This document shows, in pieces, positions 1 to 19,577 of a stretch of DNA of 19,577 nucleotides. The position numbers and the translations under genes are program-made. The DNA is from a virus: positions 1 to 19,577 of IMG/VR virus record IMGVR_UViG_3300036846_000255, one strand, 5' to 3'. Position 1 is the first letter of the stretch. Each line of letters opens with the position of its first letter. Below the pieces are notes generated by a model. That model ran no database searches. It worked only from the letters and a program-made list of their open reading frames with translations, and had not been told where the DNA came from.

Positions 1-99
1 ATAGAGGTGAACCCCTCGTTAACCTAGACCCCCCACCCCAGTTAACGAAAGTTCTCATGAAACTCTAATTAATTTCTAACCGTATTCACAGCACCTGGG
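1..99. repeat. Left inverted terminal repeat (ITR), perfectly matching core
   Basis: I compared nt 1-99 base by base with the reverse complement of 19479..19577 and they are identical. The first mismatch is at nt 100 (g versus t). The repeat sits exactly at the window edges, as expected for a complete linear protein-primed genome. Confidence 0.97.
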
Positions 100-250
100 G
101 AGTTCTCATGAAACTCTAATTAATTTCTAACCGTATTCACAGCACCTGGGTTCTCATGAAACTCTAATTAATTTCTAACTGAATTCACAGCACCTGGAAA
201 GTTCTCATGAAACTCTAATTAATTCCTAACTGTATTCACAGCACCTGGGG
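51..250. repeat. Left subterminal tandem array of four ~48-nt iterons
   Basis: The unit gttctcatgaaactctaattaatttctaaccgtattcacagcacctgg starts at 51, 102, 150 and 201, giving spacings of 51/48/51. Copies 3 and 4 carry variants (ctgaattc in copy 3; aattcctaactgtattc in copy 4). Each unit contains the palindromes TCATGA and AATTAATT. Confidence 0.95.
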
Positions 251-259
251 TGTTTATCA

Positions 260-268
260 TGGTATACT
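260..268 (+). promoter_or_regulatory. Extended -10 promoter (TGgTATACT) immediately inside the left repeat array
   Basis: TG at 260-261 and TATACT at 263-268. No good -35 lies at 17 bp; TTCACA at 235-240 is 22 bp away. It is followed by the TAATTCA leader shared with the next two promoters. Confidence 0.55.
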
Positions 269-298
269 TAATTCATCAAGTAAAGGGGGAACATAAAA

Positions 299-490
299 AT
301 GTATGAAAACACTAAAGAAGAGTTAGAGAATAAACTAGAAGAAGTTATGGAAATAATTGATAATTTAAGTGCTGAAAGAACATACTGGAAAGAAACAGCT
401 GAACAATATAAAGAAGAACGTGATATTATTACAGAAGCATACGAGAATTTAAAAGAGTCAATCTTCAGTGAACCTAACAAAGATGAATAA
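299..490 (+). CDS. Hypothetical, very acidic 63-aa protein; first gene at the left end
   Basis: ORF with the SD-like sequence aaaggggga 7 nt upstream. By my count the residues are 17 E, 3 D, 6 K and 2 R, and heptad-like spacing suggests a helix or coiled coil. I recognise no family. Confidence 0.7.
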   Translation: MYENTKEELENKLEEVMEIIDNLSAERTYWKETAEQYKEERDIITEAYENLKESIFSEPNKDE

Positions 491-519
491 AATTAATTTA
501 AAAAACTTAAACAAAAGTG

Positions 520-548
520 TTGACAACAAAAACACCACATACTATACT
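520..548 (+). promoter_or_regulatory. Consensus sigma-A-type promoter
   Basis: TTGACA at 520-525, a 17-bp spacer and TATACT at 543-548. An A-rich upstream tract (aaaaacttaaacaaaagtg) may act as an UP element. Confidence 0.8.
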
Positions 549-578
549 TAATTCATAAGTTAAGAGGAGGAATTACAA

Positions 579-725
579 ATGAAAGAAATGAGTTATTCAG
601 ACGGGATGAAAATGTACAATCACTTGAAAGTAAACTTTTGTAATGATGTAAGGTTAGTGAAATGGGACAATGTAACACATATTTATGTAGGACGTAGACA
701 TTTAGATAGTTTTCTAAATAAATAG
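579..725 (+). CDS. Hypothetical 48-aa protein (below the ORF-track cutoff)
   Basis: ATG at 579 is preceded by AGAGGAGG at 8-nt spacing and by its own consensus promoter. Manual translation gives MKEMSYSDGMKMYNHLKVNFCNDVRLVKWDNVTHIYVGRRHLDSFLNK, ending at TAG 723-725. Confidence 0.6.
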   Translation: MKEMSYSDGMKMYNHLKVNFCNDVRLVKWDNVTHIYVGRRHLDSFLNK

Positions 726-769
726 TTAAATCAAACTAAAAAATAAAACTAAAAAAATCAACAAAACTA

Positions 770-798
770 TTGACACTGGTTTCTATAAATGGTATACT
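770..798 (+). promoter_or_regulatory. Consensus sigma-A-type promoter with extended -10
   Basis: TTGACA at 770-775, a 17-bp spacer, TG at 790-791 and TATACT at 793-798, followed by the TAATTCA leader. Confidence 0.8.
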
Positions 799-868
799 TA
801 ATTCAAGGTTAAGGAATAACCTAACAAACAAAAAACTAAAAACTTAAACAGTAGAGGAGAAATATATT

Positions 869-1228
869 ATGAATAACGTAACATTACTAGGACGCGTAAC
901 TAAAGACTTTGCAGGTACTAAAACAGATAAAGGGTTAGTAATCGCTCGTAACAGCTTAGCAGTTAACCGACCTACAGAAGGTGCAGACTTCATCAACATT
1001 GTAGCATTTGGTAAAACAGCAGAGACACTAGGTAAGTTCGTTAAAAAAGGACAAAGAGTTCTTATCCAAGGACACATCCAAACTGGTTCATACGAGAAAG
1101 ATGGTAAATACGTATACACTACAGATGTAGTAGTTGACCGCTTTGAATTTATCGAATTAGCACCTAAGAAAGAAGAAGCAGAAAAAGAAGAAGTAGAAAA
1201 AGATGAAATGCGAGACCTACCATTCTAA
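869..1228 (+). CDS. ssb: Single-stranded DNA-binding protein, bacterial OB-fold type
   Basis: The N-terminal ~100 aa follow the bacterial SSB pattern (VTLLGRVTKD..., LAVNR..., ADFINIVAFGKTAE...FVKKGQ...QG.IQT.SYEKDG....T.VVV). An acidic tail ends in DLPF, matching the bacterial SSB C-terminal tip (DDDLPF/DDDIPF). SD is GAGGAG. Confidence 0.9.
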   Translation: MNNVTLLGRVTKDFAGTKTDKGLVIARNSLAVNRPTEGADFINIVAFGKTAETLGKFVKKGQRVLIQGHIQTGSYEKDGKYVYTTDVVVDRFEFIELAPKKEEAEKEEVEKDEMRDLPF

Positions 1229-1236
1229 CGAAAACA

Positions 1237-1261
1237 GAGATGAGAGCTTCGGCTCTCTCTC
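1237..1261 (+). terminator. Possible weak intrinsic terminator or RNA hairpin after ssb
   Basis: The sequence gagaTgagagc-ttcg-gctctctc forms a ~10-bp stem with one bulge and a UUCG loop. The downstream tract (attatctat) is only moderately U-rich. Confidence 0.35.
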
Positions 1262-1275
1262 ATTATCTATAAAAC

Positions 1276-1289
1276 TGACATATATGTCA
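1276..1289. promoter_or_regulatory. 14-bp perfect palindrome TGACATATATGTCA (candidate operator, copy 1 of 3)
   Basis: Perfect dyad located 15 nt upstream of the ATG at 1304. The same core occurs at 3864..3877 and 6257..6272. No usable -10 lies downstream here. Confidence 0.5.
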
Positions 1290-1303
1290 AAAAGGAGAAA
1301 ACA

Positions 1304-1723
1304 ATGAAAACATTAAAAATAGCTTTTATGTCTGTGTTATCAATTTTAGTCTTTATTACTTCTATGTCAGTCACTTATTTAGTATTAGAAAGGAACGAAC
1401 AACATGAACAAAGCACACCTAAAATTACACAATCGAGTGAAACTATCTCAACAATTGAAGAAACACAAACAACTACAACAGAGTCTTCATATTCAAATGA
1501 ATCAACTCAAGAAGAAGTAGTCGCTCCTTCTGTTCAACCACCAAGTACAGAAGAATACACAGTTAATAATTATTTAGGTGTTGATACTTATTCTAACTTA
1601 AATGCTGATAATTATTCTATTACACGTAATTCAGATGGAGTCAGGGGTGTGTTAATTGTTGAATCACCTTATTCAATGCAGTGGTTTTACGATGACAACA
1701 GAGGCTTAATCTACACTAATTAG
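1304..1723 (+). CDS. Hypothetical membrane-anchored protein (N-terminal TM helix, S/T/E-rich linker)
   Basis: SD is AAGGAG. Residues ~7-28 are hydrophobic (AFMSVLSILVFITSMSVTYLVL), followed by a low-complexity T/S/E-rich segment and a ~60-aa C-terminal domain. I recognise no family. Confidence 0.7.
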   Translation: MKTLKIAFMSVLSILVFITSMSVTYLVLERNEQHEQSTPKITQSSETISTIEETQTTTTESSYSNESTQEEVVAPSVQPPSTEEYTVNNYLGVDTYSNLNADNYSITRNSDGVRGVLIVESPYSMQWFYDDNRGLIYTN

Positions 1724-1734
1724 GAGGAAAACAA

Positions 1735-2163
1735 ATGTTAAAATTTAAAGAAGGACAGACATATATTTGTACGAAGGCAAACTTACCTTGGTGGACAAAA
1801 GGAAAAGAGTATAAGGTATTTTTTGATGAGCTACCTCGAGTTTTTGCAATAAAAGACAATCAAGGAACTATTTGGTATGACTATGAACTAAACGATACAA
1901 CACACAAATTCAACCTCAAAGACAATCCATTAGCAGAGAAGAGAACAACTGACTTAATTGACAACCAACCACACTACAAAAACCAAGGTATTGAACCTAT
2001 TGACTTAATGCGTAAAAACTTCTCTAAAGAAGAGTTTGCTGGATTTTTACAAGGTAATGTGTTAAAATACATGTTGCGCTACAAAGATAAGAATGGTCTT
2101 GAAGATTTAAAGAAAGCTAAGACATATCTAACATGGTTAATCGAGGAGGAAACTAATGACTAA
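1735..2163 (+). CDS. DUF3310-like phage protein with an extra N-terminal domain
   Basis: The C-terminal half shows the DUF3310 pattern as I remember it: PHY..QGIEPIDLM......F..GNVLKY.LRYK.KNG.EDLKKA..YL.WL. SD is AGGAGG. The N-terminal ~70 aa are unassigned. Confidence 0.7.
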   Translation: MLKFKEGQTYICTKANLPWWTKGKEYKVFFDELPRVFAIKDNQGTIWYDYELNDTTHKFNLKDNPLAEKRTTDLIDNQPHYKNQGIEPIDLMRKNFSKEEFAGFLQGNVLKYMLRYKDKNGLEDLKKAKTYLTWLIEEETND

Positions 2164-2614
2164 GTACAAAGTAACAGATAAATCATATGGTAACTACAAT
2201 GGTAAACTTAATTACGATTATGCTTTCGATACTTCTAAATTCAACGGGTTAGTTAGAGATACCGAAAGGTCTTTACAAGGATTAGAAAGAGCATTTAACT
2301 ATTTACCAGGAGAACACCACTTTCCTTTTAAAAAACCTATCTCTTACATTGATGCTAAAGCCTTAGTAACTGGAGCATATGTAGCTCCTATTAGAGCTAT
2401 CTTAAATCACTTCTCCGAACATTCGTCTGAGCGTAGAGCAAACAAACAAAAAGAAGTGATAGCTAAAGATGCTATGAACTCAGAATCACCTAGAGAGTTA
2501 ATCAAAGAATTAAATAAACTAAACAAACTATTTGAAAAATATGCAGACGATAAATTCAAAGGACGTCGTAAATTCGCTATCGTTGCATACAATGAATTAG
2601 GATATAACGGATAG
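2156..2614 (+). CDS. Hypothetical 152-aa protein (weak candidate terminal protein)
   Basis: SD is GAGGAGG and the gene overlaps the previous one by 8 nt. It has a basic C-terminal half (RRANKQK, KFKGRRK) and lies in the replication module. There is no recognisable similarity to phi29 p3. Confidence 0.65.
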   Translation: MTKYKVTDKSYGNYNGKLNYDYAFDTSKFNGLVRDTERSLQGLERAFNYLPGEHHFPFKKPISYIDAKALVTGAYVAPIRAILNHFSEHSSERRANKQKEVIAKDAMNSESPRELIKELNKLNKLFEKYADDKFKGRRKFAIVAYNELGYNG

Positions 2615-2624
2615 GAGGAAAACA

Positions 2625-3866
2625 ATGGGATTATTTAACAAGACACAAGAAGAAAAGTTTTTAAAATTCATCGAAAAATTTAGAAAGGAAAATATCCCCT
2701 CAAACTTTAACCAAGCTAGAGGGGTTGAAAATTTAATCAACCCAGACAATGACTACACAGTGTCCATCTCTTCACGTACGGACGGTAAGAGTTTTAACTA
2801 TATGGGTATGTTAATGGCTGTTGCTTTTGAGTTTGACTTAGGTATTCTATTCCTTGACCGTCACTACACAGTAAGACAAGCTTACATGGAAAACATCTGG
2901 GAGATAATGCACGTTATGCCACATTTCGATGAGAAAGAGTTATCATTCGAACGTAGTGATGAATACGTAACAGTTGTCTATAAAGACAAAACAATCGGTG
3001 CTATTACAGATATCAACAACAGTTCTGACTTGAAGAACCACTCTCATTTTCTAGCTAAATTCCCTATCTTGGTTTACGATGAATTCTTAACAATTGAAAC
3101 AGACTATGTTCCTTTAGAAGACAAACACTTTGAACGTATCTACCGTTCAGTTGACCGTAACGACCATATACCTCTAATTGACATCCCTAAGGTATTTCTA
3201 CTAGGTAATCCTGAGAACTTTGCTAGTCCTTTAATCGCTATGCTAGACTTGTATAATAAACTAGAGAAACACCCTATTAACACGGGTAAACATTATGACA
3301 ATATCTATCTTGAAATGTTTCGTAACGATAACCAGAATGCTAAGCGTAACTTACGTGCGTTTAAATATGCTGATAAAGGTTCTATCTCAGGTGAGTTCCA
3401 AATCAACAACACATATATTGCAAACGATGAAATAAGAGCGATGATTAAACGAGGAGGATTTAACACTTTTAACATCAAACTAGAAGAAGGTTTCTTAAAA
3501 ATCACCTACAACTTAGAAACACGTAAAACTCTAATCAGTTACATTTCATCTGTTTCTAATTATGACTTTTGCACACAAGTATCCGATAAGAAAGATGGTG
3601 TTGTATTCTTAGGAGAAACATACTTTAAAGACACTCACTTAAAATACCATGAGCGTGGTTTCTACTATTATGACAACAGCTATACTAAATCACTGATTAC
3701 AAGAGACTCATCACTCGTAGAGTTAAAAATTTGGAAGTGCGTATCTAAACATGCAATCTCACACACTGAAAGCTTATCTGATAGAATTGAAAAAGAATAC
3801 AAAGATACTTACCTTGAAAACACCTTAAAATCAATTCATAAAAAGTTTATGCTAGACAACTTCTAA
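2625..3866 (+). CDS. DNA encapsidation (packaging) ATPase, phi29 gp16-like
   Basis: Walker A-like SSRTDGKS at aa 49-56 (nt 2769-2792). Walker B ILVYDEF with D152/E153 (nt 3078-3083). The downstream segment VFLLGNPENFASPLI parallels phi29 gp16 CICLSNAVSVVNPYF. SD is AGGAGG. Confidence 0.8.
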   Translation: MGLFNKTQEEKFLKFIEKFRKENIPSNFNQARGVENLINPDNDYTVSISSRTDGKSFNYMGMLMAVAFEFDLGILFLDRHYTVRQAYMENIWEIMHVMPHFDEKELSFERSDEYVTVVYKDKTIGAITDINNSSDLKNHSHFLAKFPILVYDEFLTIETDYVPLEDKHFERIYRSVDRNDHIPLIDIPKVFLLGNPENFASPLIAMLDLYNKLEKHPINTGKHYDNIYLEMFRNDNQNAKRNLRAFKYADKGSISGEFQINNTYIANDEIRAMIKRGGFNTFNIKLEEGFLKITYNLETRKTLISYISSVSNYDFCTQVSDKKDGVVFLGETYFKDTHLKYHERGFYYYDNSYTKSLITRDSSLVELKIWKCVSKHAISHTESLSDRIEKEYKDTYLENTLKSIHKKFMLDNF

Positions 3867-3881
3867 CATATATGTTATATT
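3853..3881 (+). promoter_or_regulatory. Putative promoter in front of the polymerase gene with a palindrome in the spacer (copy 2 of 3)
   Basis: TAGACA at 3853-3858, a 17-bp spacer and extended -10 TGtTATATT at 3873-3881. The 14-bp palindrome TAACATATATGTTA (3864..3877) spans the spacer and overlaps the -10. Confidence 0.45.
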
Positions 3882-3899
3882 AGTTTGTGAGGTGAGAGT

Positions 3900-6242
3900 A
3901 TGGAATATGTAAAATATTTAGATGGCACAACTAAACAAGACATTATTAACTATTTAAACAAGAGTAAGATACACCAGTTTGATATCGACATTGAAACATT
4001 AAGCTATAACATGAATATGAGTAGAAAGAAACCTACAGCTATGAAAAGTCGTATGTTTACTTTCACTGCTTCATGGTTCGATGAGTCAGGACGTATTTAT
4101 ACAATTGCAACACCATCAGTTAAATATTTCATTGATGATTTCCTTCTCCCTTATGCTAAGAAAACAAAGGGAAAAAGCAAACGTTCTGGTTTTGCTCGAG
4201 TGGTTTTCAATGTGCACAACGGTAACAAGTTTGATAATCACTTCCTAGCGAAAGAAATACACGAAACCTATCATGCGAAATATCGTAACTGGGAAGATGA
4301 TAAAAGCAAAGTAAAAGTGAACTTAGGGAAACACATGATGAAAGGAGAAAACACAGAAAACTATATTCTAGAGAAGAGGGTAAAGGGTATGTCCCACCTC
4401 TCTTTCTCTGCTGTTATAGGTGATTTACAAATTGACACAGTTGATACAGTCATGAAAACAGGATGTGCCTTATCAACAGTCGGACAAATGCTTTTATCTG
4501 CAGGATGTATTACAGAAGATAAATTAAAAACAACTTTCGACTATGCTAAATATCATTACCAAGAAGACATGTCAGAAATTGAAGTAAACACGGAAGTATT
4601 AGACATCTTCAATTCTTTAACAGAAGAAGAGTGGGTTTATATTGCAAATGACACATACATTCTTTCATCTTTAAGAAGAGACTTTGAGAAGATTTTTCCA
4701 GGTTTCGACTATAACAAACAAACAAAAACACAAAACATTATTAATGCTTACAAAAGAAACAATACAGCTGAATATCAAATACTTGGTAAGATTACCAAGC
4801 AAAACGAAACTTCTTTAAGACCAGATGTTTACGAGGTGAACTATAGTGATTATGACGTTCAAGGTGAGAACATGGCACGTATTGTACAAAACTTTTATAA
4901 GGGTGGGTTAAACTTTTATAATCAAGATTACGTTGGTAAACTTTTAACAGGAGAGTTTATCAGTTTTGATATTAACAGTTCTTATCCATCCATTATGTAT
5001 GAGTTCCCTATGCCTTGGTTAATCAGAAACCATTACGAACACAAATGTGTTAAGAAGGTATCAACAGATTTACATGAAGAATTCACCCTTTACAAAGTAA
5101 CAAAAGAAGTTTTTAACCGTTTGTTAAGCTTACTAGGTTCTAGAGTTGTTAGACAAATGTTAACAAAATATTTCAGAAGAGAAGGTGAGTTTGTTTATTT
5201 GACTACTTGGACATTCAAAATGTTAAAAGAGAATTTTCATTTAGAAATTCCAGAAATTGAATGTGAACAATGGTATGAGTTTAGCGTAAAATATTTCGGT
5301 GCTAGAGACGCTATCACGGAGTTTTACTTCACTAAAACACAAGGAAAAGCAAAGAGTGTGGTGGAATTCGTGGATAATAATCCTATGAATATTGTCTTAC
5401 ATGAAGACCAAAAGAACGAGAAAGTATTTACAAAACCTATGATTGACATCGCTAAAGTAAATCTTAACGGTATCTATGGTGCTCCGGCTCTAAAACCTGC
5501 TTATTCAGTTGGTTATCGTGATGAAGACGGGTTTTTACACGTTGAACGTAATGGTTACTTAAATACAGAACGTAATGCTATGACAAGTGTATTCACGACG
5601 GGTGGGGCTTTATGGAGATTAACACAACCTTTACAATATTTAACAGATAAAGAGATTGACGACGCTTTTCTTTACTGTGATACAGATAGTTTATACATGA
5701 AACGTTATATTTTACCTAAACTACCTAAAGAAATGTTTCACCCGATGAACTTAGGTTCTTGGGATATTGAACACAACTTAATTACCGAATTTTATGTATT
5801 AAACCATAAAAAATATGCTTTCTATGACAATGGTATTGTTTTCCATTGCGGAGGTATCCCAGAAGACGCTTTTGATACAGATATGTCTTTCAAAGAGTTT
5901 GTAGACACACAATTCCATAAAGGGGTACAAATGCCTAACAACCGTAGTATTATGACATCAGAAGGAACAATCGTTATTTACGAAAGTAGCACTGAACTAG
6001 ATGAAGGTGGTAGTTATCCAGACCGTTATACTGATGAAGATGAATTAATTGAACAAATGGTAAAAGAAGAATTAAGAAAACAGTTGACAGATGAGGATGA
6101 TAATGATATTCTCTATATAGAATATGAGTTAGGTTCAATGTCCTTGAAAGACGTTTATCCTTTCGAGTACGAAACATCAAAAGATTCCTTGGCTGGCTTG
6201 TATTATGATTCGGGAGATATTAGAAATAATATTTCTCGATAA
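3900..6242 (+). CDS. Family-B DNA polymerase, protein-primed type (phi29 p2-like)
   Basis: Exo I is DIDIETL (D30/E32). Exo II is HNGNKFD (aa 106-112). Exo III is YIAND (Y247..D251). Motif A is FDINSSYPS (aa 356-364), motif B KVNLNGIYG (aa 519-527), motif C YCDTDS (aa 592-597, nt 5673-5690) and KxY is KKY (aa 637-639). Confidence 0.95.
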   Translation: MEYVKYLDGTTKQDIINYLNKSKIHQFDIDIETLSYNMNMSRKKPTAMKSRMFTFTASWFDESGRIYTIATPSVKYFIDDFLLPYAKKTKGKSKRSGFARVVFNVHNGNKFDNHFLAKEIHETYHAKYRNWEDDKSKVKVNLGKHMMKGENTENYILEKRVKGMSHLSFSAVIGDLQIDTVDTVMKTGCALSTVGQMLLSAGCITEDKLKTTFDYAKYHYQEDMSEIEVNTEVLDIFNSLTEEEWVYIANDTYILSSLRRDFEKIFPGFDYNKQTKTQNIINAYKRNNTAEYQILGKITKQNETSLRPDVYEVNYSDYDVQGENMARIVQNFYKGGLNFYNQDYVGKLLTGEFISFDINSSYPSIMYEFPMPWLIRNHYEHKCVKKVSTDLHEEFTLYKVTKEVFNRLLSLLGSRVVRQMLTKYFRREGEFVYLTTWTFKMLKENFHLEIPEIECEQWYEFSVKYFGARDAITEFYFTKTQGKAKSVVEFVDNNPMNIVLHEDQKNEKVFTKPMIDIAKVNLNGIYGAPALKPAYSVGYRDEDGFLHVERNGYLNTERNAMTSVFTTGGALWRLTQPLQYLTDKEIDDAFLYCDTDSLYMKRYILPKLPKEMFHPMNLGSWDIEHNLITEFYVLNHKKYAFYDNGIVFHCGGIPEDAFDTDMSFKEFVDTQFHKGVQMPNNRSIMTSEGTIVIYESSTELDEGGSYPDRYTDEDELIEQMVKEELRKQLTDEDDNDILYIEYELGSMSLKDVYPFEYETSKDSLAGLYYDSGDIRNNISR

Positions 6243-6256
6243 TTTAAACAAAAGAG

Positions 6257-6285
6257 TTGACATATATGTCAAATCATGATAAACT
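6257..6285 (+). promoter_or_regulatory. Consensus promoter whose -35 lies inside a 16-bp perfect palindrome (copy 3 of 3)
   Basis: TTGACA at 6257-6262, a 17-bp spacer and extended -10 TGaTAAACT at 6277-6285. The palindrome TTGACATATATGTCAA spans 6257..6272. The upstream tttaaacaaaagag nearly repeats the UP region of the promoter at 520. Confidence 0.8.
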
Positions 6286-6316
6286 AAGTTCATAAGATAA
6301 AGAGAGGAAGATAAAT

Positions 6317-6508
6317 ATGATTAAAGAATACAAGGTAATGAACGAACGAGTATACAAAGTGATTGCTGTAGATGAAGATGGTTATGAAATGGATTTCTTC
6401 ATTAAAGGGGAAGATTCAAATCACGCACAACACAAATTTATCAAATTAGCTCAATTCAACGATAACGGATTAACCTACAAATCAATTAAGGAGATTACAA
6501 TCATATGA
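6317..6508 (+). CDS. Hypothetical 63-aa protein
   Basis: SD is GAGAGGAAG. It is the first gene after the 6257 promoter and its stop overlaps the next start (ATGA). Confidence 0.7.
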   Translation: MIKEYKVMNERVYKVIAVDEDGYEMDFFIKGEDSNHAQHKFIKLAQFNDNGLTYKSIKEITII

Positions 6509-6660
6509 AAACTTATAAAATTACTTTTCACGACGCATGGGATGGAACAACAGGAGAAACTTATATCTTCGCACAATCTGCTATAGACGCTGAAATTATT
6601 TTCACTCAAGAAGAAGACATGTATGTAACAGTATTAGATGTACAGGAGGAAGAATTATGA
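6505..6660 (+). CDS. Hypothetical acidic 51-aa protein (below the ORF-track cutoff)
   Basis: ATG at 6505 lies in an ATGA overlap with the previous stop, with AAGGAG 10 nt upstream. Manual translation gives MKTYKITFHDAWDGTTGETYIFAQSAIDAEIIFTQEEDMYVTVLDVQEEEL, ending at TGA 6658-6660, which overlaps the next ATG. Confidence 0.6.
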   Translation: MKTYKITFHDAWDGTTGETYIFAQSAIDAEIIFTQEEDMYVTVLDVQEEEL

Positions 6661-6863
6661 AAAAAGTACTAGGATTTATCATGTTTTCAGTGGTTGCAAT
6701 ACTAACCATAGGTATTAACTTAGTCGGAATACAATTCTTTTATGAAGCTATTAATTATCATCTATCAGCAGATACAATATTGGGTATGTTCTTTGTAGGC
6801 ACTACCATTATAGGTTTAGATAGTTTAATGATTTGGCTTGTCTTAGAAATTAAGGAGGAATAA
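6657..6863 (+). CDS. Hypothetical small membrane protein with two TM helices
   Basis: SD is AGGAGGAAG. The hydrophobic segments are LGFIMFSVVAILTIGINLVGI and ILGMFFVGTTIIGLDSLMIWLVL. Confidence 0.7.
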   Translation: MKKVLGFIMFSVVAILTIGINLVGIQFFYEAINYHLSADTILGMFFVGTTIIGLDSLMIWLVLEIKEE

Positions 6864-6865
6864 TA

Positions 6866-6937
6866 ATGTTATCACTCGTATGGATCATGGCTATTTTAGG
6901 TTTTGTTGCTTTAGTTAATTATATAGAAGGAGAATGA
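6866..6937 (+). CDS. Possible 23-aa hydrophobic micropeptide
   Basis: AAGGAGG lies 7 nt upstream of ATG 6866. Manual translation gives MLSLVWIMAILGFVALVNYIEGE, and the stop overlaps the next ATG. It is very short, so the call is tentative. Confidence 0.35.
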   Translation: MLSLVWIMAILGFVALVNYIEGE

Positions 6938-7005
6938 AAATGATTAACAAATTAAAAGATTTTTTACATCGAATTTTAAAAACAGGAGGATTAGTGACCG
7001 CATGA
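6934..7005 (+). CDS. Possible 23-aa (or 21-aa from ATG 6940) basic micropeptide
   Basis: GAAGGAG lies upstream. Manual translation gives [23 protein letters not shown], and the stop overlaps ATG 7002 (ATGA). It fills the otherwise non-coding gap in a tightly coupled gene string. Confidence 0.3.
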   Translation: MKMINKLKDFLHRILKTGGLVTA

Positions 7006-7235
7006 ATAATAACGAACGTCGAGAGTTTCTAAGAAGGTTTTGGATTGCTATGGAAGTAATTATGGAAGAAAAACGCCTACCACATTCTAAAGTGGTGGGT
7101 AATAACACATCGCTAGCTAAAAGTCGTGAATTAAACCCCACAATTGTAAGACTTGAGTCTTTTGCCAACAACTTAGATATGGATTTTAACAAATTTATGA
7201 AAAAACTAAATGAAGAGATGGAGCTAATTAAATGA
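7002..7235 (+). CDS. Small putative DNA-binding protein (divergent XRE-like HTH)
   Basis: AGGAGG lies 10 nt upstream. The segment [22 protein letters not shown] resembles the conserved C-terminal part of XRE/Cro-type HTH domains (NPsletLlkiAkaLgvsldeL). The helix-turn-helix proper ([17 protein letters not shown]) is shorter and atypical. Confidence 0.45.
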
Positions 7236-7795
7236 ACTTGAACCCTGAATTTTTAGAAGACGCTTTGAAACCAGAAAAGAACTACATGGCGAACATGCCT
7301 GCACGTTGGGAAGTTGTATCAGTAAATCCGAACTATGAAGTTTCAGATTTAGGTGAGGTTAGAAATATTAAAACTGGACGTATTTTAAAACAGAAAGATA
7401 GAAATGGATACGCTGCTGTTAATTTATCTTATGAAGGTAAAGTGAACACCTATAACGTTCATCGTTTAGTAGCAGAAGCTTTCTTAGATAATCCAGAAAA
7501 CAAAACTCAAGTAAATCATAAAGACGAAATTAAAACAAATAATTCATTAGTTAATTTAGAATACGTAACACCTCAAGAAAATATTGAATATTCTAAAGCT
7601 ATTCAAGTAATCGGTAAAGACATTCATGGGAATATTGTAATGGAATTTGAGTCATTAACAGAAGCTGGAAGACAAGGTTACTTCCCTAACTATGTCAAAC
7701 GTTCATTTTTGTATCATGTCCCTTATAAAGGGGTATATTTTACAATCATGCCACCTAAAGCACAAGAATATAAGGAGCGTAAACTATGGCAATAA
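7232..7795 (+). CDS. Free-standing HNH homing endonuclease (NUMOD4 + HNH_3 pattern)
   Basis: The NUMOD4-like part is [29 protein letters not shown]...NGYAAVNL...VHRLVAEAF. The HNH part is [24 protein letters not shown], as in I-HmuI-type enzymes. The gene overlaps both neighbours (ATGA at 7232; 10 nt at 7786). Confidence 0.85.
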
Positions 7796-9786
7796 CAAAA
7801 GAACAATTCGCAAATGCTAAAATTGATGAGTCTTTCGGGATTTCAGATGATGTGTTAGTTAAATATGTACAAACAAGTGTTTCAGGTTCTAGGTGGTGGC
7901 GTTACTGGAAGGATGACGCTGCTAAAATTAAACAAACATTTGATATCGCAAGACAAAATGGTATGTCAGCAGCTCTCTTAGTTGTAAAAGAGAAGGTAGA
8001 AGGTGTTGGTTTTACTAACGGTGATATGGACGGGTGGGGTAACCACTTTGATCATCCAAACGCTGACCCTATGGTAGACTTAGCTAATTATGCACAAGCA
8101 ACTGTTACAGTAGCTAACTCAACAGCTTACAATCCTTCTTGGGTTGATATGGGTAACCCTGTTAACTGTGTACCTAACGGTGTTATAGCTGAAGGAAATG
8201 CAGACTTTGCTTCTACTCCTACAGGAACAATCAAACGCGCTTATGTACCAATGACAGCAGCCACAACTTGGGCTTATTATTATCCCCAAGCATTAAACGC
8301 TAGCGTAAATGGTGTTCAAACATACGGGAACCCTATTCAACAGTGTACAGATTACTTAAATGAAATGGGGGCTAAAATTACAGGTTCTGGTGGTGCTGGT
8401 GATGGTGGTACAGCTCCAGAAGGTGGAGGTAATGATGTAAAACCAGGAGAGCCAAACCAAAACAAACCTTTAGAAGGTAGTGGAACGAGTTCTTTTGACC
8501 CAACATCTATCATCGAAGCTATTCAAAAAGCGATTAAACAAATTTTAGATTTACTCACACAAAACTATTCACAAGAAAAATTATCCATTTACGGTTCTAA
8601 AACAGGTTTAATGTTTACCCAAGTAAATAAGAACTATGTTTTTGCTTATGATTTTTTCAATGATAACGTTAAATCTATCAGTGATACGTTAAGTGATGTA
8701 GTTGGTGATGAGTTACAAAACAGTGGAGCTATTCAAGATGAATTACCCAACGGTGTAAACCAAACAGTTGAAATACTCTTAACTAGAGCGTTGAAATATG
8801 TCGATAGTGAAGTTTTATATGATGAAGCCAAAGACGGAAACCCTGAAAATGGAGCGACCGATAATGCTCGTTTCATGTCTTGGTGTGTTCAAACCATTCA
8901 CCCTTCTCTAAAAGGTGCATCACATAAAGATTTTTTCAATCGTTTTAATGCTGCAGGTTATGTGAGACATCGAGGGTTATGGGCTGACATTTCTAAACAT
9001 ATCCAAATAGGGGATATTATCTGTTGTGCAGATAATTTAACAATTGATACAGGCGGTAAAGAATACTTCATCGCTTTAGGTGATGATGAATGCATAGAAG
9101 CTTACCCCTGGGAGAATGGAGAGAGAAGTAGTAAAGGTGGTAAACCTGTAGCAAAAGGAGTAGCTAAATTTAAGCTTTCTGAAAGAACTGCTTTGGGTTG
9201 TGCTGACATCGCTATTATTCGTGTATACACACCTAAAGAAGTAGAAAACGATACACCTTCAACACCAAATCCACCGTCTGGTAGTGTTAATTCAGCATTA
9301 GCTCACATTGCTTCATTTATGGGGCGTACGATCGGGTCTGGTCAGTGTTATGCCTTATGTGCTGAATTCGCTGGTGTATTAGGAGGTCCAGGACTTGGCG
9401 CAGGGACTAAGTATAGTATTTCTGGTTTAAGTGGTCAGGGGTCAACAAGTGCTGCTGCGGATATCGGTATTTGCTACAAATGGAGTGCTTATGGGTGGAC
9501 GATGATACAAAACCCTTCTTTATCACAAATCGTTCCAGGATGTATCTTAAACATTAATAGAAGTGTAAACGTAACTGAATCTATGGGTGAAGGTACTTCT
9601 GCTTGGTTTAACTGGACATCTGACCCTACTTACGGTCATACAGTTGTAGTTGAGAAAGTTAGTGGAGATAACCTTACTGTTCTTGAACAATGGGGTGGTA
9701 GCCGTCAATATACCATGAGAAACATGATGAAATATTCTGGTACTGGTGCATCGGGAATCTCAAGTATTTGTATTCCTCCTAGTTAA
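7786..9786 (+). CDS. Multidomain virion or tail-associated peptidoglycan hydrolase (C-terminal CHAP domain), phi29 gp13-like role
   Basis: The C-terminal ~165 aa show the CHAP pattern ([12 protein letters not shown] with the Cys, [10 protein letters not shown] with the His). A Gly-rich linker ([17 protein letters not shown]) follows an N-terminal ~195-aa domain, much like the gp13 domain layout. The middle region has an NlpC/P60-like outline (FMSWC ... IGDIICC) but no clear His. SD is AAGGAG. Confidence 0.7.
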
Positions 9787-9820
9787 TAAAGAAAGTGCAT
9801 CCCCCGTTTAGAATAAACGA

Positions 9821-9855
9821 AAAACAAGCCCGCTCTAGGCGGGCGTTTTTCTTTA
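9821..9855. terminator. Bidirectional intrinsic terminator between the convergent arms
   Basis: The GC stem gcccgc (9828-9833) pairs with gcgggc (9839-9844) around a 5-nt loop. It is flanked by aaaaacaa upstream and gtttttcttt downstream, so each strand reads a hairpin followed by a U-tract. Confidence 0.8.
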
Positions 9856-10695
9856 TTAAAAGCTTTTTAATCCAGAGAAGATGTCGTGCGTTGGTTGTTT
9901 GACATTACCCTTCTCATCCTGAGTGCGTCGGAAGACTACTTTAACTTTCTTACCTTTTACTTGAGAATAATTAAACTCTGCGTGTAAACCAAAAGCGTAT
10001 GTTTCGCTAACGTTCAAAGCTTTATTTACATCCTTTCTAACAATCCCTTTAGACTTTTTACGGTCAATTTCTTTTCCTTTTTCATCTAAAAGAATCGCAT
10101 AATTGTAACCACTGATTTGAGGTAGGTAAACCCAACCATCACAAATGATTTTATCACCCTGCTTCTCGAATTTATCGATACTACCTGCAGGACTTGGGTG
10201 TGGTGACCCAGCTGGAGAACTACCCATATGTTTCTTAATTTCGTTAATGAAGTAGTCTCTCGTTTTATTACCAGCACCATGAATTTCTTGTGATCGGTGA
10301 GGACATGCTGTAGAACTAAATGTGTTGTGAAGTCTTACAGTTGTCGTATTTGGTTGTAAACCGTGACGTTTTAAGATTTCGGCTGCTAATTTAATAGCTT
10401 TAGCTTCATTTGCTAAAAATTGATTTTTGTCACCCATTGATTGACAAGCCTCAATACCAATATAGTTAGCATTACCGTCTGAGTTAGCCGTATGCCACGC
10501 CATATTACCTTCATCTTCCATTTGTAGAGTGCCATCACTAGCAATATAGTAATGTGCAAAACCATTTGCTGCGTTAGCGTTTGTTACATAACCTTTATAA
10601 AAATTAACATTTGCTGCATTTGAACCAGCGTCATTATGAATGACAACTCCTTTTACCTTACCATTTCTTTTTCCTGCAATTCCTTTTGTAATCAT
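9856..10695 (-). CDS. Endolysin: N-acetylmuramoyl-L-alanine amidase (Amidase_2/PGRP type) plus C-terminal wall-binding domain
   Basis: The N-terminal domain carries KGVVIHNDAGS (Zn His) and VRLHNTFSSTACPHRS (His/Cys), as in T7-lysozyme-type amidases. A P/S/G linker (GSSPAGSPHPSPAGS) precedes an unassigned ~105-aa C-terminal domain. The gene lies directly downstream of the holin, with an ATGA overlap. Confidence 0.85.
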   Translation of the reverse strand: MITKGIAGKRNGKVKGVVIHNDAGSNAANVNFYKGYVTNANAANGFAHYYIASDGTLQMEDEGNMAWHTANSDGNANYIGIEACQSMGDKNQFLANEAKAIKLAAEILKRHGLQPNTTTVRLHNTFSSTACPHRSQEIHGAGNKTRDYFINEIKKHMGSSPAGSPHPSPAGSIDKFEKQGDKIICDGWVYLPQISGYNYAILLDEKGKEIDRKKSKGIVRKDVNKALNVSETYAFGLHAEFNYSQVKGKKVKVVFRRTQDEKGNVKQPTHDIFSGLKSF

Positions 10696-10916
10696 TTAAC
10701 TTCTTCCTCCCTAGTAAATTTTAAACTAATATTTTCAATCATTGATTTAATAATCTCAACGTCTCCCAACGCATCAGTCAGTTTTTGGATTGTTTCTTGG
10801 TAACGAATTTCACGACCATTGTTTGTTTTCATGACCCAGATGAATAATCCGATGAAGAGAGCTGCAAAACTTACTTCATTAGGGTTAGACAAAAGATTTT
10901 CTACGAATTGTTCCAT
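10692..10916 (-). CDS. Holin, single-TM BhlA/UviB-like
   Basis: It has one TM helix (VSFAALFIGLFIWVM) followed by MKTNNGRE..YQ..I..L and a charged coiled tail, which resembles the BhlA family as I recall it. SD is AAGGAGGTGA. It sits immediately upstream of the endolysin. Confidence 0.7.
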   Translation of the reverse strand: MEQFVENLLSNPNEVSFAALFIGLFIWVMKTNNGREIRYQETIQKLTDALGDVEIIKSMIENISLKFTREEEVK

Positions 10917-10939
10917 TCTATCACCTCCTTTCTCATACT

Positions 10940-10948
10940 ATTTTAACA
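10940..10948 (-). promoter_or_regulatory. Possible internal extended -10 promoter for the lysis cassette
   Basis: The minus strand reads TGtTAAAAT about 25 nt upstream of the holin ATG. There is no convincing -35. Confidence 0.25.
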
Positions 10949-10955
10949 TATCTCA

Positions 10956-12707: not shown

Positions 12708-12717
12708 GTTTTCCCTC

Positions 12718-13572: not shown

Positions 13573-13573
13573 A

Positions 13574-14362: not shown

Positions 14363-14372
14363 GTCTTTCCTC

Positions 14373-15806: not shown

Positions 15807-15819
15807 TTATTTCTCTCCT

Positions 15820-17452: not shown

Positions 17453-17474
17453 GTAGTAACCTCCTATTTAATTG

Positions 17475-18647: not shown

Positions 18648-18648
18648 A

Positions 18649-18813
18649 TTATTCTGCTCCTCCTACGTTGTGGATTTTGTTTTCGTACTCATCACGTGAT
18701 GATGGGTCAATGCTCATTTCTGGTGTTAATTGTGGTGTTTTGTCAAACTTAATATCGCTTCCAGCTCCTTTAGTGAAAGACTTAAGTTCGTGTGCTTGTA
18801 AAATTTCTTCCAT
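18649..18813 (-). CDS. Hypothetical 54-aa protein between the scaffold-like gene and the capsid gene (below the ORF-track cutoff)
   Basis: ATG 18813 has AAGGAGAG 7 nt upstream. Manual translation gives MEEILQAHELKSFTKGAGSDIKFDKTPQLTPEMSIDPSSRDEYENKIHNVGGAE, with its stop 1 nt before the capsid ATG. Confidence 0.55.
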   Translation of the reverse strand: MEEILQAHELKSFTKGAGSDIKFDKTPQLTPEMSIDPSSRDEYENKIHNVGGAE

Positions 18814-19302: not shown

Positions 19303-19331
19303 AGTATAACATGATAGTATATTATATGCAA
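19303..19331 (-). promoter_or_regulatory. Promoter of the structural/lysis arm
   Basis: The minus strand reads TTGCAT (19331-19326), a 17-bp spacer, then extended -10 TGtTATACT with TATACT at 19308-19303. Confidence 0.7.
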
Positions 19332-19366
19332 GTGTTTTATTCATTAAAATGTAAAAAGATTTCAAT

Positions 19367-19527
19367 AAGAGTTTCATGAGAACCCAGGTGCTGTGAATTC
19401 AGTTAGAAATTAATTAGAGTTTCATGAGAACCCAGGTGCTGTGAATTCAGTTAGAAATTAATTAGAGTTTCATGAGAACCCAGGTGCTGTGAATACGGTT
19501 AGAAATTAATTAGAGTTTCATGAGAAC
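19367..19527. repeat. Right subterminal tandem array of three exact-period 48-nt iterons plus a truncated fourth
   Basis: The units are 19480..19527, 19432..19479 and 19384..19431, in reverse-complement orientation to the left array. A stub (aagagtttcatgagaac) lies at 19367..19383. The two inner units carry the ctgaattc variant seen in left copy 3. Confidence 0.95.
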
Positions 19528-19577
19528 TTTCGTTAACTGGGGTGGGGGGTCTAGGTTAACGAGGGGTTCACCTCTAT
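19479..19577. repeat. Right inverted terminal repeat (ITR), perfectly matching core
   Basis: It is the exact reverse complement of nt 1..99. Confidence 0.97.

What the first reader, a model, noticed from the sequence alone, without database searches (positions are those of the whole stretch)
1..250. Long ITRs that run into unequal arrays of ~48-nt iterons
phi29 itself has only a 6-bp ITR. Here the ends share a perfect 99-nt inverted repeat that continues into tandem units of gttctcatgaaactctaattaatttctaaccgtattcacagcacctgg. The left array has four copies (starts 51/102/150/201, spacing 51/48/51). The right array has three exact 48-nt copies plus a 17-nt stub (19367..19527). Each unit contains two short palindromes (TCATGA, AATTAATT). 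Repeat variants are shared between ends (ctgaattc in left copy 3 and right copies 2-3), which suggests exchange between the termini. Arrays of protein-sized repeats next to protein-primed origins look like iterons for an origin-binding or end-organising protein. The 48-nt period is twice the 24-bp binding period described for phi29 p6, although no p6 homologue is visible here. That link is inference only.
Basis: partly seen in the sequence, partly recalled or inferred. Interest (0 to 1): 0.75.

Follow-up and report, generated by a model that had tools for sequence, protein, structure and literature searches.

The report
Amplified end-repeat boxes in enterococcal phage
Both ends of this small Enterococcus phage genome carry three to four tandem copies of a 48-base block, which is an amplified version of a short end-specific element that all its relatives carry once beside their replication origins.

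Summary
There is a perfect 99-nt ITR, four units on the left (starts 51/102/150/201), and three clean units plus a decayed fourth on the right.

The window is a phi29-like Enterococcus podophage of the Rountreeviridae/Sarlesvirinae, near Minhovirus.

The 48-nt unit is not the elementary repeat. It consists of four boxes (TCTCA/TCTAA/TCTAA/TCACA) spaced exactly 11 nt apart. It is colinear with a single-copy segment at nt ~51-95 of the early-gene end of nine relatives.

All 14 termini examined for box layout, from seven genomes of two genera, carry an inward-reading box pair 11 nt apart, directly after a C-rich block (one end has a TATAA variant). The distance from the physical end is fixed at 54 or 43 nt where it could be anchored. 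Genome interiors hold such pairs only at chance level.

The array is therefore a lineage-specific tandem amplification of a conserved, end-specific element. Most likely this element is a protein-binding auxiliary part of the protein-primed origin, and it may also act on the adjacent terminal promoters.

The phi29 p6 link is not supported: there is no p6 homologue, the boxes are sequence-specific, and the period is 11 nt. The binding protein is unknown, and the copy numbers are not independently verified.

The parts
1..50 (+). Left terminal core block: the non-repeated part of the ITR and probable core origin. It holds a C-rich tract flanked by CGTTAAC/GTTAACG.
   Evidence: Identical at both ends (I1). 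Conserved in IME199, SHEF14, Ump and Zip, with invariant columns listed in alignment A1. As single-stranded DNA it forms an 8-bp stem, z = -2.6.
51..98 (+). Left unit L1 (CCGTATTC variant), with boxes at 53, 64, 75 and 86.
102..149 (+). Left unit L2 (CCGTATTC variant), preceded by the spacer GGA at 99-101. Boxes at 104, 115, 126 and 137.
150..197 (+). Left unit L3 (CTGAATTC variant, as in R2 and R3). Boxes at 152, 163, 174 and 185.
   Evidence: (I2). Its 3' part and its junction to L4 are present in the independent Logan contig.
201..248 (+). Left unit L4, next to the promoter (TTCCTAACTGTATTC variant), preceded by the spacer AAA at 198-200. Boxes at 203, 214 and 236; the third box has decayed.
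   Evidence: Its TCACA box lies 22 nt from the -10 hexamer, as I counted it in the early-end sequences of IME199, Ump, Zip and phiEFM13 printed.
260..268 (+). First early promoter, with an extended -10 (TGgTATACT), driving the 63-aa ORF at 299-490.
   Evidence: The same -10 and leader cassette recurs at 539 and 789 (D3, D9), where the scan also finds full TTGACA-17-TATACT promoters. This site has no good -35 and was identified by eye.
19528..19577 (-). Right terminal core block, identical to 1-50.
   Evidence: I1.
19480..19527 (-). Right unit R1 (CCGTATTC variant).
19432..19479 (-). Right unit R2 (CTGAATTC variant).
   Evidence: I2.
19384..19431 (-). Right unit R3 (CTGAATTC variant, identical to R2).
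19336..19383 (-). It matches the unit at 28 of 48 positions, and its first 27 nt are 85% identical.
   Evidence: I13, D2. One search shows that it continues into sequence homologous to the RNA-side end of IME199.
19303..19331 (-). Inward-facing right-end promoter, TTGCAT-17-TATACT, upstream of a conserved non-coding RNA-like segment.
   Evidence: Read directly, with positions. The strict consensus scan does not list it, so it rests on inspection and on conservation in relatives.

Best explanation
The 48/51-nt units are tandem duplications of a conserved subterminal module found in enterococcal Sarlesvirinae phages.

The module holds four boxes, (T)TCTAA-like, all reading inward from the terminus and 11 nt apart, which is about one helical turn. 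It lies between the roughly 50-bp terminal core origin and the inward-facing terminal promoter.

Inferred mechanism:
- The boxes are half-sites for a sequence-specific double-stranded-DNA-binding protein, encoded by the phage or the host, that binds as dimers or higher oligomers on one face of the helix.
- This complex acts as the auxiliary part of the protein-primed origin. It could help open the terminus or position the terminal protein-polymerase complex. Because of where it sits, it probably also influences the neighbouring terminal promoters.
- In this lineage the module was amplified by slippage or unequal exchange in two registers, 51 nt (carrying the AAA that precedes the unit) and 48 nt.
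- The copies were then spread between the two ends by the exchange that keeps ITRs alike, such as out-of-register panhandle pairing or recombination. This pushed the older, end-specific copies inward.

Shown: the anatomy, the homology to single-copy modules, the end-specificity, the fixed distance from the terminus, and the higher conservation of the boxes.

Inferred: protein binding, the role in replication, and how amplification and exchange happened.
For: **Anatomy**
- Each unit holds four boxes at exactly 11, 11, 11 nt. The window interior has no such chain, and 200 shuffles gave none of three or more.

**Homology**
- The unit aligns colinearly with nt ~51-95 of the early-gene end of IME199, Ump, Zip and SHEF14.
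- It also matches the corresponding segment of L171, L172, L177, L378 and L380.

**Position and orientation**
- All 14 termini examined for box layout, from seven genomes in Minhovirus and Copernicusvirus, have a box pair 11 nt apart directly after the C-rich block. IME199's RNA-side end has TATAA variants at the same spacing.
- The first box starts 54 nt (55 in the window) from the physical end in Minhovirus and 43 nt in Copernicusvirus. I derived this by anchoring on IME199, IME195 and the adapter junction in L380.

**End-specificity**
- Interior pairs number 0-3 per genome, against about 2 expected by chance. At least one pair lies in the terminal 120 nt of 11 of 12 ends.

**Conservation**
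- Box columns carry more information than the spacers (1.69 against 1.22 bits), and an 11-nt comb peaks at the box register.

**Alternatives weakened**
- The unit has no hairpin potential as single-stranded DNA (z = 0.3-0.7).
- The array contains no sigma-70-like promoter.

**Amplification and exchange**
- Nine relatives have one module at the early-gene end, in sequences that run through it without a break.
- Left 101-197 is identical to the right end in shifted register (I2).
- The AAA spacer repeats the junction between the core block and the first unit.

**Precedents in protein-primed replicons**
- phi29 p6 recognition regions lie at 46-68 and 62-125 from the ends (PMC4974454).
- Host Spo0A boxes lie at the phi29 origins (PMC2731898).
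- TRF1 binds the pGKL plasmid ITRs (cited in PMC6831550).
Against: - No binding protein was identified. The early ORFs show no known double-stranded-DNA-binding domain.
- The only conserved candidate is the 77-aa protein at 7002-7235. It gives a weak XRE/C-protein-like fold match (E 0.45, TM about 0.5). That fold usually binds inverted repeats, not direct repeats.
- The module also sits just upstream of the terminal promoters. The TCACA box lies 22 nt from the -10 hexamer at the early end in five genomes (my count). A mainly transcriptional role therefore cannot be excluded.
- Successive units are not in helical phase: 48 nt is about 4.6 turns. The array does not form one continuous binding face.
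- Relatives manage with a single module, so the extra copies may have no function.
- The relatives are homologous, so the termini examined are not independent observations.
- The copy numbers rest on one assembly.
Confidence: 0.55

Rival explanations
1. The module is mainly a transcriptional element, either an operator or an UP-like upstream region for the inward-facing terminal promoters (the first early promoter and the right-end RNA promoter). The array is then a set of duplicated upstream sites that tune or repress early transcription.
For: - The TCACA box lies 22 nt from the -10 hexamer at the early end of the window, IME199, Ump, Zip and phiEFM13 (my count).
- In Copernicusvirus the last box abuts the -35 TTGACA.
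- The module covers about -38 to -80 of the first early promoter, where activators and UP elements act.
- In phi29 the p6 complex at the right end also represses promoter C2 (PMC11476376).
Against: - The first box pair keeps a fixed distance from the terminus at both ends, whereas its distance to the promoters varies. It is 11 nt from the -35 in the Ump, Zip and SHEF14 RNA-side ends (my count) and about 100 nt in IME195.
- No box pairs beyond chance occur at internal promoters, even though the same -10 and leader cassette recurs at 539, 789 and 6275.
- The boxes form part of the ITR regardless of which promoter follows.
Confidence: 0.2
2. The extra copies have no function. They are tolerated products of slippage or unequal exchange in the ITR, and only the single module next to the terminus (or next to the promoter) matters.
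For: - Nine relatives carry a single module at the early-gene end.
- Two duplication registers (48 and 51 nt) and several point variants suggest repeated, undirected events.
- The genome length of 19577 nt lies within the 18.7-19.9 kb range of relatives, so there is room in the capsid.
- Cp-1 also has a diverged 94-nt subterminal tandem duplication.
Against: - The box sequences are intact in 15 of 16 left and 12 of 12 clean right positions despite point changes elsewhere in the units. The copies may simply be young, however.
- Both ends reached four modules, placing the -10 hexamers at similar distances from the ends: 263 on the left and about 270 on the right.
Confidence: 0.3
3. This is the first reader's reading: the array is a p6-like lattice in which an architectural protein wraps the DNA every 24 bp, with 48 nt holding two dimers.
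For: - The element lies 51-98 nt from the end, similar to the p6 recognition regions at 46-68 and 62-125 (PMC4974454).
- On the right array there are four boxes per 48 nt, which averages 12 nt per box.
Against: - There is no p6 homologue.
- p6 recognises bendability, not sequence (PMC4974454), whereas here a sequence motif is conserved across two genera.
- The real spacing is 11, 11, 11 and then 15 or 18 nt.
- The 51-nt spacings on the left break any 12- or 24-nt lattice.
Confidence: 0.07
4. The boxes are sites for a host OmpR/PhoB-type response regulator. This would let the host's physiological state gate phage replication, as Spo0A does for phi29.
For: - The architecture matches: direct hexamers separated by 5 nt (TCTAAT-N5-TCTAAC), as in WalR/VicR sites TGTWAH-N5-TGTWAH.
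- TCTAAT half-sites occur in footprinted S. mutans VicR sites at gtfB and atlA (PMC4168254).
- The boxes are shared by phages of E. faecium and E. faecalis, while the small early phage proteins differ between them.
- phi29 offers a precedent (PMC2731898).
Against: - Every box has C where the WalR consensus has its conserved G.
- The VicR sites containing TCTAAT are low-affinity and are paired with a consensus half-site (PMC4168254).
- No binding data exist, and the resemblance is in architecture only.
Confidence: 0.12
5. The copy numbers, or the arrays as a whole, are an assembly artefact of a short-read metagenome assembly.
For: - Only one full-length assembly exists.
- Tandem repeats next to ITRs are hard to resolve.
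- The k=31 Logan assembly breaks inside both arrays.
- The window already lacks two terminal bases.
Against: - The Logan contig independently contains the L3-AAA-L4-unique junction.
- It breaks exactly where a 31-mer has two continuations. That requires at least two junction types in the reads, whereas single-module relatives assemble straight through to the terminus.
- Every left junction is unique in sequence. The only identical neighbours, R2 and R3, are bridged by about 136 nt, which is within Illumina read length.
Confidence: 0.1

Closest known systems
Single-copy subterminal region of enterococcal Sarlesvirinae ITRs (Minhovirus IME199, Zip, SHEF14, Ump; Copernicusvirus IME195, Ef7.2, Idefix)
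   Same: These are homologous sequences. They share a terminal core starting AAATA, a C-rich block, and then inward-reading TCTAA boxes 11 nt apart. Idefix is reported to have a 61-bp ITR (PMC6356687).
   Different: The relatives have one module, or in Copernicusvirus a diverged run of 5-7 boxes, and ITRs of about 50-70 nt. The window has 3-4 near-identical tandem units and a 99-nt perfect ITR. Allowing for one 51-nt indel, the similarity between ends extends to about 200 nt. The papers I read do not mention the boxes.
phi29 p6 nucleation regions at the replication origins
   Same: Both are subterminal (tens of bp from the end), lie next to a protein-primed origin, and are present at both ends. 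In phi29 this region forms a multimeric nucleoprotein complex that activates initiation and represses a terminal promoter (PMC4974454, PMC11476376).
   Different: There is no p6 homologue here. p6 reads bendability with a 12/24-bp period, whereas here a sequence motif is conserved with an 11-nt period. The phi29 ITR is only 6 bp.
Host Spo0A boxes near the phi29 origins
   Same: Both are short sequence-specific boxes for a regulator, placed at both origin regions of a protein-primed phage and affecting replication and nearby promoters (PMC2731898).
   Different: The motif differs (TGTCGAA), and there is no fixed 11-nt array. Enterococci have no Spo0A, and no binder is known here.
Auxiliary origin regions inside the ITRs of other protein-primed replicons (adenovirus NFI/Oct-1 sites; the pGKL plasmid TRF1 site)
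   Same: The layout is the same: a core origin at the very end, then protein-binding sites further inside the ITR that stimulate initiation. The adenovirus part comes from my own knowledge. TRF1 is cited in PMC6831550.
   Different: The proteins and motifs are unrelated. Those sites are not built from a helically phased box array that has been tandemly amplified.
Streptococcus phage Cp-1 subterminal duplication
   Same: Cp-1 is a phi29-like phage with a long (236-bp) ITR, a C-rich block near the end, TTCTAA-containing 19-nt repeats 25 nt apart, and a 94-nt tandem duplication across the ITR boundary.
   Different: The Cp-1 duplication has two copies at 76% identity, and each copy carries a full promoter. 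There are no 11-nt-phased boxes, and the phage belongs to a different family (Salasmaviridae).
Plasmid iterons
   Same: Both are arrays of direct repeats in helical phase at an origin.
   Different: Iterons are 17-22-bp sites for a Rep initiator encoded alongside them, at a theta-type origin. Here there is no Rep, replication starts at the DNA ends by protein priming, and the conserved box is 5-6 nt long.

Membership tests
Protein-primed linear phage genome (phi29-like, Rountreeviridae/Sarlesvirinae) | A family-B DNA polymerase of the protein-priming type | tested here: met
   PF03175 DNA_pol_B_2 matches the 780-aa ORF at 3900-6242. It is 58% identical to the Ef7.2 polymerase.
Protein-primed linear phage genome (phi29-like, Rountreeviridae/Sarlesvirinae) | Inverted terminal repeats at the ends of a linear genome of about 19 kb, with phi29-type morphogenesis genes | tested here: met
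   There is a 99-nt perfect ITR. The window also has a phi29-type connector (PF05352) and about 77% nucleotide identity to Minhovirus genomes over 34-55% of its length.
Protein-primed linear phage genome (phi29-like, Rountreeviridae/Sarlesvirinae) | A terminal base reiteration that allows sliding-back, with the true physical ends present | tested here: inconclusive
   The window starts ATAGAGG. Relatives start AAATAGAGG, and an adapter junction in L380 shows AAATAGAGG as the physical end. The window probably lacks two A's at each end.
Protein-primed linear phage genome (phi29-like, Rountreeviridae/Sarlesvirinae) | [quoted passage not shown] | not testable with these tools
   The only candidate is the 152-aa ORF at 2156-2614. 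It lies upstream of the packaging ATPase and the polymerase, matches phrog_26026 of unknown function, and is 26% identical to its Ef7.2 counterpart. This is the same position as the Idefix candidate (PMC6356687).
phi29 p6 nucleoprotein origin complex | A p6 homologue is encoded | tested here: not met
   Pfam and PHROGs gave no hit for 10 early ORFs. A tblastn with p6, using a sequence recalled from memory, gave a best E-value of 0.096, inside the HNH gene.
phi29 p6 nucleoprotein origin complex | A 12/24-bp bendability periodicity without a conserved sequence signal | tested here: not met
   The spacing is 11, 11, 11 and then 15 or 18 nt. A sequence motif is conserved across two genera. Bendability itself was not computed.
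phi29 p6 nucleoprotein origin complex | Recognition region located tens of bp from both ends | tested here: met
   The first module lies at 51-98 from each end, compared with 46-68 and 62-125 in phi29 (PMC4974454).
Plasmid-type iterons | Direct repeats bound by a Rep initiator encoded alongside them | tested here: not met
   No Rep-like protein was found among the early ORFs. The replication genes are of the protein-priming type.
Plasmid-type iterons | Several direct repeats in helical phase at an origin | tested here: met
   There are four boxes at 11-nt spacing per module and four modules per end. Successive modules are not in phase, since 48 nt is about 4.6 turns.
OmpR/PhoB-type response-regulator site (WalR/VicR: TGTWAH-N5-TGTWAH) | Hexamer direct repeats separated by 5 nt | tested here: met
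   The unit reads TCTAAT-taatt-TCTAAC. The architecture is as described in PMC4168254.
OmpR/PhoB-type response-regulator site (WalR/VicR: TGTWAH-N5-TGTWAH) | A TGT core in the half-sites | tested here: not met
   All boxes read TCT or TCA. TCTAAT occurs only as a weak second half-site in VicR footprints (PMC4168254).
OmpR/PhoB-type response-regulator site (WalR/VicR: TGTWAH-N5-TGTWAH) | Demonstrated binding by the regulator | not testable with these tools
   This requires EMSA or footprinting.
Auxiliary origin region within an ITR (adenovirus or pGKL type) | Protein-binding sites inside the ITR, next to a conserved terminal core | tested here: inconclusive
   Position and conservation fit. Binding and stimulation of initiation were not tested.

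The most novel reading that the evidence does not exclude
The phased TCTAA boxes are the recognition sites of a so far unidentified origin-licensing factor of enterococcal phi29-like phages. This factor could be a phage protein that takes the place of p6, or an essential host response regulator of the OmpR/WalR type that couples phage replication to the state of the host cell wall or growth. The four-fold amplification at both ends in this phage would then be an adaptive change in origin strength, or in titration of the factor.
Probability: 0.2. Interest if true: 0.7.

Novelty: new variant of a known kind. Interest (0 to 1): 0.5.

Why it matters
Outside the Bacillus phages, what activates the origins of phi29-like phages is unknown, and no p6 equivalent has been found in the Rountreeviridae.

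This analysis turns an odd repeat in one genome into a defined motif shared by two genera of enterococcal phages. The motif consists of inward-reading TCTAA boxes, 11 nt apart, at a fixed distance from both ends.

That motif makes the question directly testable. The 48-nt unit is a ready-made bait carrying four sites, suitable for a DNA pull-down, footprinting, or in vitro protein-primed replication with zero, one or four modules.

It also provides a natural example of ITR growth by tandem amplification and exchange between ends.

Two practical points follow. These phages are candidates for therapy against vancomycin-resistant enterococci, and their ends are often missing or carry adapter sequence in database records. 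Engineered phi29-type replication systems also depend on origin strength.

Tried and rejected
**Searches that found nothing useful**
- Rfam found nothing in the window at gathering thresholds. At the right end, E-value mode gave only chance-level hits.
- The exact unit is absent from IMG/VR.
- Terminal-core patterns recovered only IME199 and Zip in IMG/VR.
- My metagenome scan used too loose a pattern (CCCCCNCCNNNGKTAACGA). L021 was also a chance hit.
- The pattern TTCTCATNAAACTCTAAT gave only chance matches in IMG/VR and genome contigs. None had the flanking module.
- A BLAST of nt 1-300 and 1-110 against phage genomes found only IME199 and SHEF14 termini at about 81% identity. No other phage has the array.
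- A paper search for the run accession found nothing.

**Right end of the Logan contig**
- Look-ups of right-end proteins (125, 108, 54, 390 and 477 aa) returned no record. The right end of that contig was therefore inferred from its length only.
- P0002, the closest relative at 94% identity, lies on a contig without ends.

**Looking for a binding protein**
- Pfam and PHROGs show no double-stranded-DNA-binding domain among 10 early ORFs.
- The 77-aa protein gave only a weak XRE/C-protein fold match.
- A tblastn with p6 was negative.

**Ideas rejected**
- The unit as a structured single strand: z = 0.3-0.7.
- Promoters inside the array: none found.
- The TCATGA and AATTAATT palindromes as the functional core: not conserved in relatives.

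**Not attempted**
- DNA curvature and bendability modelling.
Full report
**1. What the window is**

The 19577-nt window is a complete or nearly complete linear genome of a phi29-like Enterococcus podophage.
- Megablast finds only enterococcal Rountreeviridae/Sarlesvirinae phages. The best are vB_OCPT_Ump, phiEFM12-14, IME199 and Zip, at about 77% identity over 34-55% of the window (taxonomy).
- It encodes a protein-priming-type family-B polymerase (PF03175) and a phi29-type connector, an SSB and a DUF3310 protein.
- No record in the phage collection covers 80% or more of it, so it is a new species-level relative of Minhovirus.
- According to the protein index, the same 19577-nt contig comes from JGI and Logan data (P0001).

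**2. The observation**

- The perfect ITR is 1-99 / 19479-19577 (I1).
- The left array has four units starting at 51, 102, 150 and 201, with spacers GGA, none and AAA.
- The right array has three full 48-nt units.
- Left 101-197 is 100% identical to the reverse complement of 19432-19528 (I2). The ends therefore share variants in a shifted register.

Four corrections apply.
- R1 differs from R2 and R3 at two positions.
- The 'stub' is a decayed fourth module. Its first 27 nt are 85% identical to the unit and 28 of 48 positions match overall. It runs into sequence homologous to the RNA-side end of IME199.
- The palindromes TCATGA and AATTAATT are not conserved in relatives.
- The window probably lacks two terminal A's. 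IME199 begins AAATAGAGG, and in L380 an Illumina adapter is joined directly to AAATAGAGGTG.

**3. Is the array real?**

A Logan contig from run SRR11835973 (19230 nt) is identical to window 168-2490.
- It begins inside left copy 3 and contains the L3-AAA-L4-unique junction.
- From its length it should end near 19397, inside R3. I could not read that end.
- A k=31 assembler stops where a k-mer has two continuations. This is expected if the CTGAATTC-variant unit is followed by AAA in one place and by another unit elsewhere.
- Relatives with one module assemble straight through to the terminus, and in one case into the adapter.

Tandem repetition is therefore supported at the read level. The exact copy numbers are not independently confirmed.

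**4. Anatomy of the unit**

The 48-nt unit is built from four pentamer boxes, TCTCA, TCTAA, TCTAA and TCACA.
- They sit at unit positions 3, 14, 25 and 36, exactly 11 nt apart. The gap to the next unit's first box is 15 or 18 nt.
- The interior of the window (301-19300) has no pair of such boxes at 11 nt on either strand. Shuffled sequence never gave a chain of three or more.
- All boxes read inward from the nearest terminus.

**5. Relatives**

*Homology of the unit.* It aligns without gaps to nt ~51-95 of the early-gene end of IME199, Ump, Zip and SHEF14. It also matches the same segment of five further relatives recovered through the 77-aa protein: L171, L172, L177, L378 and L380. Each has one module, with gaps of 11/11/11 or 11/10/12.

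*Distribution of box pairs.* Fourteen termini from seven genomes were examined for box layout: window, IME199, SHEF14, Ump, Zip, IME195 and Ef7.2. All have a first box pair 11 nt apart directly after a C-rich block.
- IME199's RNA-side end has TATAA in both boxes at the same spacing.
- Copernicusvirus ends carry 5-7 boxes over about 100 nt, often as pairs 11 nt apart.

*Distance from the end.* Anchoring on the physical end, the first box starts at nt 54 in Minhovirus (55 in the window, which has one extra C) and nt 43 in Copernicusvirus. I derived these values.

*End-specificity.* Interior box pairs occur at chance level, 0-3 observed against about 2 expected per genome. Eleven of 12 terminal 120-nt stretches hold at least one pair.

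*Conservation.* Across seven lineages the box columns are more conserved than the spacers (1.69 against 1.22 bits). The 11-nt comb has its maximum at the box register.

*Caveat.* These genomes are related, so the counts are not independent events. Between the two genera, however, the terminal blocks have diverged strongly while the boxes remain.

**6. History of the array**

The array is specific to this lineage. Nine relatives have one module at the early-gene end.
- The AAA spacer before L4 repeats the junction between the core block (ending ...CGAAA) and L1. This implies one duplication register of 51 nt and another of 48 nt.
- The copies carry point variants: CCGTATTC, CTGAATTC, CTGTATTC, and TTTCT or TTCCT. 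These mirror variation seen among relatives.
- If the 51 nt at left 51-101 are removed, the two ends are identical for 146 nt (I1, I2).
- The promoter-proximal copy at each end is the most divergent and is specific to that end.
- The simplest reading, which is inference, is amplification by slippage or unequal exchange. Spread between the ends would follow by the process that keeps ITRs alike in protein-primed replicons, such as out-of-register panhandle pairing or recombination. That mechanism comes from general knowledge of adenovirus-type ITR repair and was not tested here.
- Both ends now hold four modules. Their inward-facing -10 hexamers lie at similar distances from the ends: 263-268 on the left and about 270-275 on the right.

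**7. What it most likely does**

The evidence points to double-stranded DNA recognised by a protein, in a role tied to the genome end.
- The boxes are direct repeats at about one helical turn.
- They have a fixed orientation and a fixed distance from the terminus.
- They are present at both ends regardless of which promoter follows, and absent from internal promoters.
- They are more conserved than the spacers.
- The unit has no single-strand structure, and the array contains no promoter.

The best-supported model is an auxiliary origin element lying next to the ~50-bp core. Three systems work in a comparable way:
- phi29 p6 recognition regions at 46-68 and 62-125 from the ends (PMC4974454);
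- Spo0A boxes at the phi29 origins (PMC2731898);
- TRF1 on the pGKL ITRs (cited in PMC6831550).

The module also lies just upstream of the terminal promoters. At the early end the TCACA box is 22 nt from the -10 hexamer in five genomes (my count). A second or alternative role in transcription therefore remains open. Whether the extra copies add anything is unknown.

**8. Who binds?**

This is unknown.
- No early ORF has a recognised double-stranded-DNA-binding domain, and none resembles p6.
- Non-structural proteins shared with Copernicusvirus Ef7.2 are the SSB, the DUF3310 protein, the 152-aa terminal-protein candidate, the ATPase, the polymerase, the HNH endonuclease and a 77-aa protein.
- The 77-aa protein models with confidence (pLDDT 82.5). 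It weakly resembles XRE/controller-protein helix-turn-helix folds (probability 0.93, TM about 0.5, E 0.45). It is only a candidate.
- The hexamer-N5-hexamer layout (TCTAAT-N5-TCTAAC) matches that of OmpR/PhoB-type regulators such as WalR/VicR. TCTAAT occurs as a weak half-site in VicR footprints (PMC4168254). The conserved G of TGT is, however, C in every box. This is a lead, not a result.

**9. Comparison and novelty**
- phi29 has a 6-bp ITR (PMC11476376, PMC4974454). The Copernicusvirus Idefix has 61 bp (PMC6356687). Cp-1 has 236 bp and a diverged 94-nt subterminal duplication.
- A 99-nt perfect ITR that continues into 3-4 near-identical 48-nt units is not present in any phage record I could search.
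- The kind of element is known: protein-binding auxiliary sequence inside the ITR of a protein-primed replicon.
- Two things appear to be new. One is the box motif, with its conservation across two genera. The other is its tandem amplification in this phage.
- I rate this a new variant of a known kind, with interest 0.5.

Noticed in passing
window 19224-19295 (- strand), promoter at 19303-19331: A conserved non-coding segment of about 72 nt lies downstream of an inward-facing TTGCAT-17-TATACT promoter. It has a terminal helix (GTGAGAGAGG / CCTCTCTCTTAC) and an internal hairpin. Four pairs show compensatory changes in a five-phage alignment. It is probably the packaging RNA (pRNA) of this group. 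Rfam has no match.
   Followed up: partly
window 1 and 19577; L380 1-40: The window starts ATAGAGG at both ends, whereas IME199 starts AAATAGAGG. In Logan contig L380 a TruSeq adapter (...GCTCTTCCGATCT) is joined directly to AAATAGAGGTG, which marks the physical end. The window is probably two A's short at each end.
   Followed up: yes
window 29-39 and 19539-19549; L167 (IME195), L375 (Cp-1), L376 (P68) and L377 (C1), first 50 nt: A C-rich block (CCCCCCACCCC, CCCCCCTCCCC, CCCCCACCCC or CACCACCCCACC) lies 13-40 nt from the terminus in enterococcal, staphylococcal and streptococcal phi29-like phages of two families. I do not know of a described function.
   Followed up: partly
window 16-23 / 41-48: An inverted repeat, CGTTAAC ... 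GTTAACG (two HpaI-type palindromes), flanks the C-rich tract in the terminal core. As single-stranded DNA it forms an 8-bp stem (z = -2.6). It is partly conserved in relatives as CGTTAAC ... GGTAACG.
   Followed up: partly
window 258-308, 538-588, 789-805, 6275-6325: A conserved cassette recurs before several early genes. It holds the -10 (TATACT), the leader (TAATTCATnAAG) and the ribosome-binding site. At 520-548 and 770-798 it has a full TTGACA-17-TATACT promoter.
   Followed up: partly
window 7002-7235 (+): A 77-aa protein (phrog_10028) is conserved across Minhovirus and Copernicusvirus. Its predicted fold weakly resembles XRE/restriction-modification controller helix-turn-helix proteins. 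It is a candidate phage regulator.
   Followed up: partly
L169 (MK721183, Ef7.2), last ~17 nt: The right end of this GenBank record begins with TGTGTATAAGAGTCAG. This looks like a remnant of the Nextera mosaic end, that is, adapter sequence left in the deposited genome.
   Followed up: no
L375 (Cp-1) 94-137 and 169-356: The Cp-1 ITR region holds two 19-nt repeats starting with TTCTAAAA, 25 nt apart. It also has a 94-nt tandem duplication at 76% identity in which each copy carries a promoter, straddling the ITR boundary at 236.
   Followed up: partly
L006, L007, L009 (phiEFM12, phiEFM13, phiEFM08): These 'complete genome' records start at the first ATG of a gene and lack most or all of the terminal repeats and the RNA region. 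Many database entries for this group therefore cannot be used to study the ends.
   Followed up: partly
window 2156-2614 (+): A 152-aa ORF lies directly upstream of the packaging ATPase and the polymerase. It matches phrog_26026 of unknown function and is 26% identical to its Ef7.2 counterpart. By position it is the best terminal-protein candidate, as proposed for Idefix IDF_05.
   Followed up: no
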